The position numbers and the translations under genes were made by a program. From Octopus vulgaris (lineage: Eukaryota), in contig OX597822.1 of the NCBI GenBank assembly GCA_951406725.2, positions 92,752,001 through 92,816,000 on the forward strand: DNA of 64,000 nt, given 5' to 3'. The notes below the pieces were generated by a model. The model was not told the DNA's origin, searched no databases, and worked only from the letters and a program-made list of their open reading frames with translations. Position 1 is the stretch's first letter. The number at the start of each line of letters is the position of its first letter. Positions 7,014-36,991 of the stretch are shown here, piece by piece.

Positions 7014-7455
7014 ATTTCTTTATTACCCACCGGGGGCTAAACATAGAGGGGAAAAACAAGGACGGACAAAGGGTGTCAGTTGATTACATCGACCCCAGTG
7101 CATGACTGGTATTTATTTAATCGACCTCGAAAGGATGTAAGGCAAAGTTGACCTCAGCGGAATTTGAACTCAGAACGTAATGCTAGACGAAATACTGCTA
7201 GGTATTTCACCTGGCGTGCTAATGATTCTGCCAGCTTTATTGATAGCAAGCTGGCTGAAACGTTAGCACACTGGGCAAAATGCTTAGCGGCATTTTGTCT
7301 GTCTTTACATTCTAAGTTCAAATTCCTCCAAGGTCGACTTTGCCTTTCATCCTTTTGGGGTTGATAAACTATGTACCAGTTGTGTACTGGGGATGATCTA
7401 ATCAGCTGGCACCCTCCCCCAAAATTTTGGGCTTTGTGCCTAGAGTAGAAAAGAA
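7014..7455. mobile_element. Head-to-head pair of SINE family 2 (Nin/Deu-domain-like) copies
   Basis: Minus copy 7014-7235 and plus copy 7246-7455. The plus copy shows gagttc-type B box and gcctttcatccttttggggttgataa..gtaccag, which resembles the Nin/Deu SINE domain. Confidence 0.7.
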
Positions 7456-16840: not shown

Positions 16841-18890
16841 TTTTAATCTGCAACGCTAACTTCAGGAAATCAGACAGCCACTTGATAAACTATTAATCAG
16901 GCGACTCTGCTAGCCAGATTGATTTCATCCTCACCAGACAGCGGGACACAAGGTTGCTCTTAAATACAAAGACCCTCCCGGGTGAAGAATGTACCCCCAG
17001 CATAGGCTAGTCATTGGTTACTTTAGGCTCAAGACCAGAAGGATACCAAGAAGCAGACCAATCCAAATAAGGATTTGGAAGCTAAAGAACCCTTCACATA
17101 GTCAGTGATTTAGGGACATCCTCAACAAGAAATTTGATGAGAAGGAGGAGGAGCTACAGACATTAGACATAGAAGGTAGCTCGAAATTCCTATGGGACAG
17201 CTGGCTGAGTGCCACAGACAAAGTCTGCGAATGGTGCAAAGTCCCTTCCAGACTTAAAGTTATGTTGTGGTGGAATAGTACTGTAGACAAAGCCATTAGA
17301 GCAAAGGAACAAGCCTGGAAAGCCTGGAAGGGTGGGGTAGCATGGAACTGTACCAGGTCGCCAAAAGGGAGGCTGGGTGGCAGGTATACATAGCCAAGAG
17401 CGAAGCAGAAAAGAAGTTTGCCAATGTCCAGCGACGTGAGGACCAAAGAACTGAGGTATTTCAGATTGCAAGACAGTGTGTGAGAGAAAATTGTGACATC
17501 ACAGGAGAGAAATGTGTCCACATGGATGATGATACACTTGCTTTTAATGATTCGGAAAAGAAAGAAGCTTGGAGAAGCCATTATGAAAGGCTACTGAATT
17601 TGGAGAATGACTGGGAGAAGGAGGGCCTGCCAAATGTTGACCCAGTAGAGGGACCAGCTATCCATATAGACAGCTCCCTAGTAGATAAAGCAATTAAGGG
17701 TATGAAGCCAGGAATCACTGCTGAGATGCTTAAATCATCTGGTGGTGTGGGCTATGGCCTAGTCACCTACATTGTAAAGCAAGTAGTTCATGATGGAGTC
17801 ATACCCAACGACTGGCGTAGCAGCACCATAGTCAACTGCTACAAGGGTAAAGCTGATGCTCTAGATAGAAATAACTACAGGGGTATCAAACTGCTGGATC
17901 AGGTGATGAAGGTCATGGAGAGGGTCAAAGCCCATCTCATTAGGTAGAGAGTCTGCTTAGATGAGATGCAGTTTGGTTTTGTGCTGGGTAGAAGCACTAC
18001 TGATGCCATATTCCTGGTTTGACAACTACAGGAGAAATACCTAGCTAAAGATAAACCCCTCTACTTAGCTTTTGTGGACTTGGAGAAAGCCTTTGACAGG
18101 GTCCCCCGATCCCTTATCTGGTGGGTGATGCGGAAACTGGGGATTGATGCATGTTTAATAAGGGCTGTACAGTCCCTGTACAGAGAGGCTGTTAGTAAGG
18201 TTAGGATTGGCAATGAGTATAGTAAAGAATTCCGGGTAGAAGTAGGGGTCCACCAAGGTTCAGTCCTCAGTCCCTTGTTATTCATCATAGTCCTCCAGGC
18301 AATAACAGAGAAATTCAAGACAGGTTGCCCCTGGGAGCTCCTCTATGCTAATGACTTGGCCGTCATAGCAGAATCACTGCCAGAACTAGAGGAGAAATTT
18401 TGGTTGTGGAAGCAAGGTTTAGAATCAAAAGGCCTTAGAGTCAATGTAGCAAAGACCAAGTAAGTTGGAAGGTGAACACATTACTCTCAAGTAGGCGACT
18501 CTGCTCAATTTGTAGATAAGGTGTACGTAGAAACTCCATAAGATGTACCCAGTGTAAGCTATGGACACATAAGAGGTGCAACAACATCAAAGGAAGATTA
18601 ACTGAGAAGATAGCTTTCATGTGCGGCAGATGCACAGGTGCAATAAACACCACAGATGTTCAGAAAACAGATTCCATCACACTCCAGGAGGAGAAACTAG
18701 AAGTAGTTGATAGCTTCCACTACCTAGGTGACCAAGTGAGTTTGGGGTGGATGCTCAGAGAGTGTTACCACTAGAATAAGAATAGCCTGGGCAAAGTTTT
18801 GAAAGCTTCTACCCCTACAGGTGACAAAGGGTCTCTCGCTCAGAGTGAAAGGTAGATTGTACGATGCATGTGTGCGAACTACCATGCTTT
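16841..18890 (+). mobile_element. Decayed RTE-clade LINE (end of APE endonuclease, reverse transcriptase with embedded PHD finger), truncated at both ends
   Basis: SGDSASQIDFILTR (APE tail); YKGKADALDRNNYRGIKLL, DLEKAFDRVPR, GVHQGSVLSPLLF, LLYANDL (YADD mutated), FHYLG; multiple stops and frameshifts. Confidence 0.92.
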
Positions 18891-18899
18891 CCTCAATGA

Positions 18900-19080
18900 T
18901 AATAATTATTATAACAATAATAACATCGAAAAGTACCTTAGGAAATAGAACCTAGGTTTGAAATTTCCCCAAGACGCCTGATGAAAGCTGGAGGGTATAT
19001 CAGCCGAAACGTGTTAACAAGCAAGATGAGGACAAATATCCGTCAAATGTAAATAATGTAAATAATTCCTCATCTCTTAA
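18900..19080 (+). mobile_element. Headless copy of the hammerhead-bearing SINE
   Basis: Collinear with the reverse complement of 24407-24575; contains CTGATGA (18978) ... cagccGAAAC (19006). Confidence 0.75.
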
Positions 19081-19135
19081 ACATAGAGCTATATATTATC
19101 TCTGAATAAATTGACTTATTTCATTGTGTTTTCAG

Positions 19136-23315: not shown

Positions 23316-24406
23316 TATCCTGTACTACTTTGTCAAAAGTGTTCTTTCCTTTTCAAAATAATACAAATGTGTTTTGGTGGAGATTAAACTGCTATTTCTA
23401 GCTAGTCAAACGTCTATTTAATGAATCCCTCGATGGCCCATGTGGGAGCATAGGAAAAATAATGTGAAATAAGTTTAAATAGTCCGAATCGATCAGTTTT
23501 CACTATTTTTATAATAACTTGCATACATGTAAACTTTGCTTGGTTTTATTGTTTGACCACCGTTTTATTTTGTATTGTTATTTTTTGTGCTGTTTTATTA
23601 TTTAAAAAAAAATTCTTTGTCATGTGATTATTATTATTATTGTTGTTGTTATTACTAAAGTCGTTAGAGTGGTGGTGTGTTAAACTATTTAGCTTCCTTC
23701 CCTCTGTCGTAATTTAGCCTCTCGTCACTTGGCATAAAACCCCTTCCTGCGATGCTACACCCCATGGCAGTTGAGGTGAGGGTCTTGCCTTGCAAGTTAC
23801 CTGGTGACCTCACTGTTGCAGGTGCCACATAAAATGCATCCAGTGCACTCTGTAAAGTGGTTGGCATTATGAAGGGCAGCCAGCCATAGAAACTAGCCAA
23901 AGCAGTCATTGGAGCCTGGTATGGTCCTCTGGCTTGTCACCTCCTGTCAAACCATCCAACCCATGCCGACAAGCAAACCAAATGTTCTTTTCTACTTCAG
24001 GCACAAGACCCACAATTTTTTGGGGAGAGGGGCCAGTCGATTAGATTGACTCCTCCCAGTATGCAACTGGTATTTAATTTATTAACCCTGAAAGGATGAA
24101 AGGCAAAGTCGACCCCGGCGGAATTTGAACTGAAACAAAACAAATGTTACATGATGTTGATTATATACACACACACATACAAAAAAAGTGGCAGCCTGGT
24201 AATTTGCTTTGCAACCATCTGGCTTTGGGTTCAGTTCCTTCGTGTGACACCTTGGACAAGTGTCTTTTATTGCTCTAGTTTGACTAACACGTTGTGAGTG
24301 AATTAAGTAGGCAGAAACTGTAATAAGTCCATTGTGTGTGTACTTTACTGGTTTCCATTTCAGCAAAGCAGTGCTGATGTTGATATTACTACAGATCACT
24401 CTGTGC

Positions 24407-24648
24407 ATTATTTACATTATTTACATTTGATGGTTATTTGTCCTCATCTTGTTTGTTGTTAACACACCGTTTCGGCTGATATACTCTCCAGCCTTCATCA
24501 GGTGTCTTGGGGAAATTTCGAACGTGGGTTCTCATTCCTCAGGTATTTTTCAATGTTGTTATTATTATTATTATTATTCAGGCCACTGCCTGGAATCGAA
24601 CTCGGAATCTTGAGGTTAGTAGCCCACGTTCTTAACCACTATGCCATA
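24407..24648 (-). mobile_element. tRNA-derived SINE carrying a minimal hammerhead ribozyme motif
   Basis: Minus strand: A box TGGCATAGTGG, B box GAGTTCGATTCC, (AAT)n linker, body with hammerhead core, tail (aatgtaaat)2. Confidence 0.75.
24461..24506 (-). ncRNA. Minimal type I hammerhead ribozyme motif (Penelope-type)
   Basis: gacac-CTGATGA-a-ggctg-gagagtatat-cagcc-GAAA-cggt-gtgtt: intact CUGAUGA and GAAA boxes, 5-bp stem II, stem I gacac/gtgtt, vestigial stem III. Confidence 0.6.
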
Positions 24649-24899
24649 TTCTGTGCTTTTGAAAACTTGTGGAATCTGTAAATTCTAAAAACAAACAGGT
24701 GAAGGTTGATAACAGGAAGATTATTTGGCCATAAAATCTTGCCTCCTAATCTATTCCTATCCAAGTTATGCTTGCATACAACACCAGATGTTAAACACAC
24801 ACATGATTGATACACAGTTTACACAGAGGCAGTTAAACTTATGTACATTTCTATTTAGTATTTACTTAACTAATTAATTCAACAGTGCATTAATTGCAT

Positions 24900-36162: not shown

Positions 36163-36206
<44 letters not shown>

Positions 36207-36207
<1 letters not shown>

Positions 36208-36985
36208 GAGACGAAGAGTGCGATTTGATTGCAATAGATATTTTATTGGTTGAACGCTATTTCAACAGTAAGTCTGTCTTTTTTAAGTTCAAAATAAGAA
36301 GTGATGAAAATTCAGAATTATAGAAATTTAAATGTAAAGTATGAACGAGAGCAATAAGAGTCCACATGTTGATGGAATGACATCACCAGTCTTTAAGTTT
36401 CAATTTTATAACAGGTGAAAAGAAAAAGACAGAAAAAAAAGAAAGAAAAAAGAAAAAAAGAATATTTAATCAAACAGTTTTGTATAAATTTGATGATATT
36501 CTCCTGTCATTTTATTCATTCCTCCAGAGTGTGATGTTAATAACCCACAAACATATTTCTCCTCATACATTCCGAGAAGTGAAAATGAAGCACATTCAGA
36601 ATATTTTCTGAGAATATGCACTTTCAAGTGTTCTTCAAAATTGCAGCCACTTGAAACGAAATGTTCAGCAAGTTCTGTCGAACTACTGTTATTGTGGCTG
36701 ACGTCGAATCTGTGCCCATTAAACCTTTTGTTTAATTGTTCTGTTGTACAACCAACATAAATCAAGTTGTGTTTCATGCATTCTGCAGTGTACACCAAAT
36801 GGGAATCTTTATATGTTCCACCTTCTGTATAAATCATAACATTTCTGTTATGATTTCTGATAGAATTCACTTGACTCATGTTGTTGCACAATTAATAGGG
36901 CTTACCTCTCTTGTTGCTGTTTTTCATGGTACAGCGTGCAGAAACTCCAATGTTCATTTTTTTGGAGTCAAAAATAGAGTTAAAA
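36207..36985 (-). mobile_element. Penelope-like element 3' remnant with GIY-YIG endonuclease (ORF 36466-36891)
   Basis: LVYTAECMKHNLIYVGCTTEQLNKRFNGH...LAEHF...YEEKYVCGLLTSHSGGMN matches the Penelope GIY-YIG pattern (GIY, YIG, Arg, His, Glu, terminal Asn). Flanked by (AAT)n on both sides. Confidence 0.82.
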
Positions 36986-36991
36986 TATAAT

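What the first reader, a model, noticed from the sequence alone, without database searches (positions are those of the whole stretch)
24407..24648. Candidate system: Pol III tRNA-headed SINE carrying a Penelope-type hammerhead ribozyme
Seen (- strand): tRNA-like head with A and B boxes, (AAT)n linker, then gacac-CTGATGA-a-ggctg[10]cagcc-GAAA-cggt-gtgtt and a short tandem tail; a second copy lies at 18900-19080. Known: minimal type I hammerheads with vestigial, often palindromic stem III are characteristic of Penelope-like element termini and can work as dimers; a SINE-like hammerhead repeat exists in Schistosoma (Sm-alpha). Most SINEs borrow LINE tails instead. Inference: a non-autonomous retroelement transcribed by Pol III, processed by its own ribozyme and possibly mobilised by a Penelope RT/GIY-YIG enzyme; a Penelope remnant is in this window. 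This copy has AACGGT where a palindromic AACGTT would be expected, so it may itself be inactive.
Basis: partly seen in the sequence, partly recalled or inferred. Interest (0 to 1): 0.75.

Follow-up and report, generated by a model that had tools for sequence, protein, structure and literature searches.

The report
Penelope retrotransposon end with tRNA promoter
This short repeat is the end piece of a protein-coding jumping gene (a Penelope-like element) that carries a tRNA-type promoter and a hammerhead ribozyme motif, and the whole element is likely read by RNA polymerase III, the enzyme that normally makes only small non-coding RNAs.

Summary
The anatomy is real: tRNA-like head with A and B boxes, (AAT)n, a minimal type I hammerhead; about 40,000 loci. 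It is not a separate SINE. The unit is the terminal repeat (pLTR) of an autonomous Penelope/Poseidon-type element: the head lies about 30 nt behind the ORF stop in 26 of 30 ORF-anchored loci, and the hammerhead body encodes the ORF's first ~52 codons. Insertions show Penelope hallmarks: head-to-head pairs (58 of 89), a 28-nt tail at one end only (45 of 51), 9-15 bp duplications around the whole pair. The window's own GIY-YIG remnant is another family. The unusual part is the promoter: 110 of 129 copies that reach the A box stop within 25 nt before it, and the ~2.8-kb element has no inherited run of four T, unlike five control families (obs/exp 0.18 against 0.9-2.0). Polymerase III transcription of a protein-coding retroelement is therefore likely but not shown. 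This copy's hammerhead is broken (U16.1 to G). RNA reads show no cut ends but an A-to-G excess, as expected of edited inverted pairs. The scan reached the same reading before on other DNA of this genome (e1-8669850); I tested it here.

The parts
24650..24656 (-). Candidate target-site duplication, left copy (7 bp)
   Evidence: Same 7 letters at 24400-24406; weak, since its first five letters also occur as a variant of the element's 3' end
24579..24649 (-). tRNA-derived head of the pLTR; A box 24646-24636, B box 24602-24592; the copy starts 3 nt before the A box
24555..24578 (-). (AAT)n linker, of variable length between copies and a landing site for other microsatellite-targeting elements
24407..24535 (-). 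First codons of the Penelope ORF (ATG at 24535); in this copy a stop after 33 codons
   Evidence: the same frame in L414 matches the N-terminus of an 847-aa PLE protein P0006, 37% over 119 aa, E 3e-20
24461..24506 (-). Minimal type I hammerhead motif inside the ORF start; U16.1 changed to G at 24467, so predicted inactive
24407..24425 (-). 3' end at the first of two family end points (9-nt repeats; no 28-nt tail)
24400..24406 (-). Candidate target-site duplication, right copy (7 bp)
18895..19090 (+). Second, head-less copy of the same pLTR with the 28-nt tail; 3-nt loss at the cleavage site and a stem II mismatch; abuts an RT-bearing LINE remnant
36200..36990 (-). Remnant of a different Penelope-like family (GIY-YIG end, own U3-A8 hammerhead); not the partner

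Best explanation
The stretch is a solo terminal repeat (pLTR) of an autonomous Penelope-like retrotransposon, made of a tRNA-derived head, an (AAT)n tract and the hammerhead-bearing first codons of the element's own ORF, and the head likely acts as an RNA polymerase III promoter for the whole element. Shown: full elements read head - (AAT)n - ORF (RT, then GIY-YIG-type end) - stop - 30 nt - head - (AAT)n - hammerhead - tail, about 2.8 kb from head to head; most insertions are only the ~280-nt repeat, often as a head-to-head pair inside one target duplication. Inferred: Pol III starts 7-14 nt before the A box and reads through the T4-free ORF; the protein binds the ORF-start region and primes reverse transcription at two internal sites 28 nt apart (as shown in vitro for the anole element PAc); priming in the 5' copy of that region, or on short Pol III transcripts of downstream or solo repeats, gives cDNAs that run only to the RNA's 5' end; a staggered cut of both strands lets two cDNAs, one with and one without the tail, join head to head. 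The hammerhead is inferred to be a dimer- or protein-dependent motif not needed for insertion; this copy's is predicted dead. The family is about 5-7% diverged and no complete ORF was seen, so it is probably inactive or nearly so now.
For: Head follows the ORF stop in 26 of 30 ORF-anchored loci, body follows in 22 of 30. Body runs straight into the ORF in 16 of 30 loci picked by the ORF's N-terminal DNA; frame homologous to P0006. 569-aa frame with RT (Pfam RVT_1 E 2.7e-6, below the cut-off) and 2914 database homologues at E<=1e-20. Of 89 loci picked on the 3' part only: inverted partner 58, partner includes the 3' end 51, tail at exactly one end 45 of 51, Fisher p 1.3e-8; flank repeats of 9-15 bp in 30 of 89, 26 of them within 6 nt of both ends, against 1.5 in shuffles; control SINE inverted in 6 of 120 hits. 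These match PLE hallmarks in PMC8557442, PMC3846280 and PMC11167929. Pol III: intact A and B boxes; of 164 head-bearing pieces, 129 reach the A box and 110 of these stop within 25 nt before it, 18 run on into the ORF; two of the three head-bearing long elements start at that boundary with unique flank (L432, L439); T4+ runs 0.36 per kb against 1.96 expected in 105 ORF pieces (101 kb), none shared between copies, while TTT is near normal (5.9 against 6.8); five other families give 0.9-2.0 times expectation, four of them with shared runs.
Against: No Pol III transcript or start site was seen: the RNA runs are unstranded, fragmented, and 84-85% of laid reads run on into unlike sequence, i.e. mostly copies inside host transcripts. 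The T4 deficit reflects essentially one ancestral sequence; synonymous-codon shuffles of four single copies were not significant (P 0.11-0.61). A small palindrome sits at the 5' boundary and palindromes at pLTR 5' ends are known from other PLEs, so a structural stop could make part of the boundary. An uncapped Pol III RNA would be a poor mRNA; how the ORF is translated is unexplained. Pfam GIY-YIG did not score on this family's own copies; 3 of the 120 listed homologues carry it. No tree was built for clade placement.
Confidence: 0.7

Rival explanations
1. The unit is the PLE's pLTR, but the element is read by Pol II (from the pLTR or from upstream) as in Drosophila Penelope; the tRNA-like head is a passive relic of an old SINE or tRNA insertion, and the fixed 5' end comes from a Pol II start or from RT stalling and folding back at the small palindrome.
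For: D. virilis Penelope has an internal TATA-less promoter in its pLTR (PMC2377424). Several junctions show fold-back copies of the head's first bases. The head no longer scores as tRNA. A capped RNA would explain translation. Codon shuffles of single copies do not show a significant T4 deficit.
Against: A and B boxes are intact in the majority sequence and the boundary lies where Pol III would start; the stronger hammerhead stem II stops only 3 of 59 truncated copies; the T4 deficit is specific to this family among six.
Confidence: 0.17
2. One reading: most solo copies come from a non-autonomous, SINE-like lineage, i.e. solo pLTRs transcribed by Pol III from their own head and copied in trans by the PLE protein, independent of ORF-bearing masters.
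For: Solo units far outnumber ORF-linked ones: ORF end upstream in 3 of 30 head-anchored loci, ORF DNA in 1 of 60 random 10-kb stretches against 9 loci with the unit. Each solo unit carries promoter and priming region. Two subfamilies exist and one variant is commoner in ORF-linked copies (15 of 28 against 24 of 117, p 0.0008). PLE pLTRs can act in trans (PMC3846280).
Against: Majority sequences of 28 ORF-linked and 117 solo units agree but for three variable positions, both subfamilies have ORF-linked members, and no frame-breaking change marks the solo set; the solo set was picked by patterns that favour one subfamily, so the allele skew is biased. The 9-nt end repeats keep the reading frame. 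Internal priming on the long RNA gives the same product.
Confidence: 0.1
3. Retrozyme-like cycle: the hammerhead cuts multimeric RNA to monomers that circularise and are reverse-transcribed.
For: Complete minimal hammerhead with palindromic AACGUU in the majority sequence; 7 of 59 truncated copies start at or up to 3 nt behind the cut (p 0.015); some partial tandems.
Against: Copies end at two fixed points 59 and 86 nt behind the cut, start at the head, and are not permuted at the cut; no unit-length arrays among the loci read; an equal peak of starts lies at an unrelated position; core positions decay nearly as fast as the rest (5.1% against 7.0%) and 23 of 89 copies keep an intact motif; in PAc cleavage is not needed for insertion.
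Confidence: 0.03

Closest known systems
Poseidon_Ac (PAc) of the green anole, Penelope/Poseidon clade (Frangieh et al. 2024, PMC11167929; parts 1-2 of 4 of the text read)
   Same: Hammerhead overlapping the ORF start; two RT start points inside the ORF that give an optional tail; both strands cut and extended; no RNA reads ending at the hammerhead cut.
   Different: No tRNA-derived head or Pol III promoter is described for PAc in the parts read; here the ATG lies about 35 nt before the hammerhead core, and solo repeats with a fixed 5' end dominate.
Adineta vaga Pen2/Pen2a (Arkhipova et al. 2013, PMC3846280; passages read) and general PLE structure (Craig et al. 2021, PMC8557442; passages read)
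   Same: pLTR includes the first codons; inverted 5' copy; 30-40 bp tail at one end; 8-10 bp duplication round the whole insert; palindrome at the pLTR 5' end.
   Different: Putative TATA/Inr (Pol II) promoter there; tRNA-type A/B boxes and a T4-free ORF here; duplications here 9-15 bp.
Minimal PLE hammerheads (Cervera and De la Pena 2014, PMC4209133; parts 1-2 of 4 read)
   Same: Helix I of 5 bp, extra base between 9 and 10.1, G10.1-C11.1, palindromic 15.2-16.2, mostly single or opposite-strand pairs 100-700 bp apart.
   Different: Nothing in the motif itself; helix II is 5-6 bp here against 7-8 bp in the Schistosoma families.
Schistosoma Sm-alpha / Sj-alpha SINE-like repeats (via review PMC6765202, passages read; originals not read)
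   Same: Pol III-type promoter followed by a hammerhead.
   Different: Those are described as tandem, non-coding and with a canonical hammerhead; here the unit is part of a coding element, has a minimal hammerhead and forms inverted pairs.
TRIMp3: Cassandra, Helenus, Ajax (Kojima 2024, PMC10886601; abstract and two passages seen)
   Same: A small-RNA-derived Pol III promoter placed in the terminal repeat of a retrotransposon, possibly by SINE insertion.
   Different: Those are non-autonomous LTR elements; this is an autonomous, protein-coding PLE.
Octopus tRNA-derived SINEs OK/OR1/OR2 (Ohshima and Okada 1994; not held; only its title and mentions in PMC4758252 and PMC4824008 seen)
   Same: tRNA-derived, high-copy octopus retroposons; this unit could be one of them.
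   Different: Could not be compared; the two citing papers file OR1 or OR2 as CORE-SINEs and mention no hammerhead or PLE link in the passages seen.

Membership tests
EN+ Penelope-like element (pLTR of) | Single ORF with RT and C-terminal GIY-YIG-type endonuclease attached to the repeat | tested here: met
   RT below Pfam cut-off, GIY-YIG motif seen by eye and in 3 of 120 listed homologues, not scored by Pfam on this family's copies
EN+ Penelope-like element (pLTR of) | Repeat present at both ends and including the ORF start | tested here: met
EN+ Penelope-like element (pLTR of) | Inverted 5' copy head to head, tail at one end only, short duplication round the whole unit | tested here: met
   58 of 89; 45 of 51, p 1.3e-8; 30 of 89 against 1.5
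Penelope/Poseidon clade | No CX2-5CXXC linker between RT and EN (present in Neptune/Nematis) | tested here: met
   absent in L401, present in L201 and L211; one decayed copy tested by script
Penelope/Poseidon clade | Placement in an RT tree with named members | not tested
   no named reference proteins among the listed hits; no tree built
Minimal type I hammerhead of PLEs | Core CUGANGA/GAAA, helices I and II, palindromic helix III, NUH triplet (family majority) | tested here: met
   intact in 23 of 89 copies; no Rfam hit
Minimal type I hammerhead of PLEs | A15.1-U16.1 pair and palindrome in this copy | tested here: not met
   G at 24467
Minimal type I hammerhead of PLEs | Self-cleavage as dimer or with protein | not testable with these tools
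   needs in vitro assay
Minimal type I hammerhead of PLEs | Covariation or selection on the structure | tested here: inconclusive
   copies are a star-like decay of one or two masters; core 49/960, stems 120/1812, other 514/7358 changes; no diverged relatives at DNA level
tRNA-derived SINE (SINE2) | tRNA-related head with A and B boxes | tested here: met
   isotype uncertain, only 35 tRNA sequences of a few isotypes compared
tRNA-derived SINE (SINE2) | A unit of its own, not a segment of an autonomous element | tested here: not met
tRNA-derived SINE (SINE2) | LINE-derived or A-rich 3' tail and LINE-type insertion | tested here: not met
   3' end is the PLE ORF start; insertions are PLE-type
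tRNA-derived SINE (SINE2) | Transcription by RNA polymerase III | tested here: inconclusive
   indirect support from 5' boundary and T4 deficit; RNA runs cannot show it
Non-LTR retrozyme | Tandem unit-length repeats, each with a hammerhead, no ORF | tested here: not met
   definition from bioRxiv 10.64898/2026.07.22.740005 (part 1 of 5 read) and PMC7229834 (passages)

The most novel reading that the evidence does not exclude
An autonomous, protein-coding retrotransposon that captured a tRNA promoter and is transcribed end to end by RNA polymerase III, with its 2.5-kb ORF purged of Pol III terminators; its terminal repeat doubles as a built-in SINE that outnumbers the coding form about ten to one, showing one way a SINE can be born from its own motor element.
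Probability: 0.55. Interest if true: 0.78.

Novelty: new variant of a known kind. Interest (0 to 1): 0.6.

Why it matters
Known PLE promoters are Pol II-type, and known Pol III promoters in terminal repeats belong to non-coding elements. A coding retroelement read by Pol III would pose a direct question (how an uncapped Pol III RNA is translated, and whether the hammerhead or a second promoter solves that) and gives a natural marker of the RNA's 5' end, which makes the unsolved PLE insertion mechanism (inverted pairs, one-sided tail) easy to read from tens of thousands of copies. It also warns that some annotated tRNA-SINEs are PLE ends. The inverted pairs look like a large source of double-stranded RNA for A-to-I editing in an animal known for heavy editing.

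Tried and rejected
Rfam and ARAGORN: no hammerhead or tRNA hit; whole-window hits were microsatellite artefacts. Window GIY-YIG remnant as partner: its 3' end has a different U3-A8 hammerhead and no similarity to the body; where the unit lies beside it (L062, L077, L080 of 20 loci) that element sits in the (AAT)n tract; proteins 21-28% alike. Pfam GIY-YIG search of the genome returned Neptune-like families with other hammerheads and missed the true partner. Search with the 52-aa body peptide for longer proteins gave 3 hits among 5 candidates, all gene models that swallowed a copy. Starts at the cleavage site: 7 of 59, not above the next peak. Run search listed no holder on record as RNA; three raw RNA runs added by species label were laid and showed no place where many molecules begin or end, which such libraries could not show. 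Codon-shuffle test of T runs on single copies was not significant. The 3' end of L432 was not recovered in 1.2 kb beyond its locus, and L439 lacks the last body, so no full element with both ends and a duplication was seen; a larger set of long copies could not be fetched. No complete ORF among 150 best C-terminal matches (longest open frame 569 aa). Literature: nine answered searches and one search listed no paper on a tRNA-headed pLTR or a Pol III-read PLE; PMC13282606 (O. vulgaris repeat annotation, parts 1-2 of 3 read) does not mention it, but its Zenodo library and supplement, Repbase, Dfam and SINEBase were not seen; PMC5785218 and Ohshima and Okada 1994 were not held.

Full report
Observation. 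The change is U16.1 to G, which removes the A15.1-U16.1 pair and two of four pairs of the dimer helix. The second copy is on the + strand at 18895-19090, has no head, and lacks 3 nt at the cut. Rfam and ARAGORN see nothing here. The genome is 2.8 Gb; gene models named for two Octopus species contain translated pieces of the repeat, so the host is inferred to be an octopus.

Family. Exact 35-mers of hammerhead, head and 3' part occur 1598, 1038 and 2889 times, reversed controls never. In 60 arbitrarily placed 10-kb stretches, 9 held the unit (13 body hits, 8 head hits), which scales to about 42,000 loci (Poisson range about 19,000-80,000; my arithmetic). Of 30 loci picked on the head alone, 25 have the body behind it on the same strand. 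Copies differ from the majority by 7.0% at ordinary sites, 5.1% at core sites and 23% at CpG; 23 of 89 copies spanning the motif keep it intact. This is decay after insertion and gives no covariation. The head matches tRNA-Arg(UCG) best among 35 tRNA sequences from 30 genomic tRNA loci (z 8.2; next 7.0, also Arg); few isotypes were sampled.

Insertion pattern. Among 89 distinct loci picked on the 3' part only (90 fetched, one duplicate dropped; all from one chromosome), 58 have an inverted copy at the 5' side, 51 of these include their own 3' end, and a 28-nt extension is at exactly one end in 45 of the 51 (both 1, neither 5; Fisher p 1.3e-8). Flanks share 9-15 identical letters in 30 of 89 loci, 26 within 6 nt of both outer ends, against 1.5 in shuffled pairs, so a pair is one insertion event. 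A control tRNA-type repeat was inverted in 6 of 120 hits. Inverted 5' copies, a one-sided 30-40-bp tail and short duplications are the stated marks of Penelope-like elements (PMC8557442, passages; PMC3846280, passages). In the anole element PAc the tail is the stretch between two internal RT start sites inside the ORF, both DNA strands are cut and extended, the hammerhead overlaps the ORF start, cuts only with protein, and is not needed for insertion (PMC11167929, parts 1-2 of 4).

The partner. The GIY-YIG remnant in the window heads a family of its own with a U3-A8 hammerhead and no likeness to the body; a young 781-aa family is also different. I had seen shared sequence upstream of the head in five loci and then tested it. 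That sequence translates to an RT thumb and GIY-YIG-type end. A protein search found 150 scored matches of 4980 candidates; in the 30 best, the head begins about 30 nt behind the stop in 26 and the body follows in 22. One copy has a 569-aa open frame with RT, 2914 homologues and no Neptune-type cysteine linker. At the other end, the body's frame (ATG 23 nt into the body, through the hammerhead and tail) runs on into the ORF in L414 and in 16 of 30 loci picked on N-terminal DNA; it matches the N-terminus of the 847-aa protein P0006 at 37% over 119 aa, E 3e-20. L439 runs 2768 bp from one head to the next. So the unit is the pLTR. ORF-linked (28) and solo (117) units have the same majority sequence but for three variable sites; three linked variants define two subfamilies, both with ORF-linked members; the skew between sets (15 of 28 against 24 of 117) is confounded by how I picked loci. 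Solo units dominate: 3 of 30 head-anchored loci have the ORF end upstream.

The promoter. In loci not picked on upstream sequence, 164 head-bearing pieces were mapped: 35 start inside the head, 98 at -20 to 0 from the A box (peaks at -14 and -7), 13 at -45 to -21 (mostly fold-back copies of the head's first bases), and 18 run on into the ORF, 8 of them beyond the 500 nt examined. Thus 110 of 129 that reach the A box stop within 25 nt. Position -7 is where a tRNA would begin. Two of three head-bearing long elements also start there with unique flank. The sense strand lacks Pol III terminators: 105 ORF pieces (101 kb) hold 0.36 runs of four or more T per kb against 1.96 expected from base content, none shared among copies at 12- to 59-fold coverage, while TTT is near expectation; five other retroelement families from the same loci give 4.01/4.40, 3.46/1.75, 3.38/1.87, 1.23/1.20 and 2.92/2.39. 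Against this: the signal comes from about one ancestor; codon shuffles of four single copies gave P 0.11-0.61; a small palindrome lies at the boundary, as in other PLEs; and D. virilis Penelope uses a LINE-like internal promoter (PMC2377424, abstract and discussion). That Pol III stops at T4-T5 runs and starts just before the A box is established knowledge, recalled.

RNA. The run search listed 24 runs, 20 holding the unit, under five organism labels; none of the holders is on record as RNA. Three raw RNA-seq runs of one label gave 9248, 7547 and 6800 laid reads of about 12 million read each, both strands alike, 84-85% running on into unlike sequence, and no place where many molecules begin or end. 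They show A>G at 21 and T>C at 13 places of the body against 1 and 1 in contigs of a run of the same label; for example 25%, 12% and 14% of reads at three sites where 3 of 87, 0 of 95 and 0 of 97 genomic copies differ that way. This fits A-to-I editing of inverted pairs inside host transcripts; it needs DNA of the same animal, and contigs drop rare variants.

The ribozyme's role. The majority motif fits the minimal PLE hammerhead point for point (PMC4209133, parts 1-2 of 4), folds stems I and II and would need a dimer or protein. Seven of 59 truncated copies start at or just behind the cut (p 0.015 for this site chosen beforehand, but an equal peak lies at positions 32-35), so processing before insertion is at most a minor route.

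Verdict. The pLTR identity is shown; Pol III transcription is a well-supported inference; trans-copying of solo units is open. Closest are PAc and the Adineta Penelope elements for structure, Sm-alpha (review PMC6765202, passages) and TRIMp3 (PMC10886601, abstract) for a Pol III promoter joined to a retroelement end. Ten paper searches listed no description of a tRNA-headed pLTR; repeat databases, the 1994 octopus SINE paper and supplements were not seen, so the sequence itself may already be catalogued as a SINE. New variant of a known kind; interest 0.6.

Noticed in passing
window 36200-36990 (-); L061-L080, L206-L210: A second Penelope-like family (4338 candidates) with a U3-A8 minimal hammerhead; it ends in (AAT)n/(ATT)n tracts and in 3 of 20 loci sits directly at the linker of the element studied here.
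   Followed up: partly
L201-L205 (for example G000:C5:1040000-1049999): Young Penelope-like family, 98-99.5% alike, with an intact 781-aa RT/GIY-YIG frame, a cysteine linker, an upstream 479-aa frame of no Pfam family, a long repetitive 3' UTR and a U3-A8 hammerhead; many full frames genome-wide.
   Followed up: partly
L415 and L039, L056, L099, L107: A LINE with a restriction-like endonuclease end (R4/Dong-like by recall) lies in the (AAT)n linker and separates head from body; this explains some head-less copies.
   Followed up: no
L090:1453-1625, runs X21-X23: Strong A>G and T>C excess in RNA reads of the family, consistent with A-to-I editing of head-to-head pairs.
   Followed up: partly
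window 19006-19018 and family-wide: A 3-nt in-frame loss at the hammerhead cleavage site recurs in about a tenth of copies (7 of 28 ORF-linked, 10-12 of 117 solo) and about 9% of RNA reads; slippage or a ribozyme-dead sublineage.
   Followed up: partly
P0001, P0003: Public octopus gene models begin with the translated pLTR frame fused to host proteins; either annotation artefacts or exonised copies.
   Followed up: no
window 10165-31496 (+): Both copies lie in introns of a large coiled-coil protein gene with exons up to ~3 kb; copy 1 is antisense to it, copy 2 ends about 45 nt before an exon and abuts an RT-bearing LINE remnant at 17300-18894.
   Followed up: no
window 7078-7441: A head-to-head pair of another tRNA-type repeat; only 3 such pairs among 120 hits of that family.
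   Followed up: no
L128:7082 (-), L131:8363 (-), L135:7470 (+), L161, L167, L220: Further minimal hammerhead-like motifs of other families, some with variant cores, in arbitrary genome stretches.
   Followed up: no
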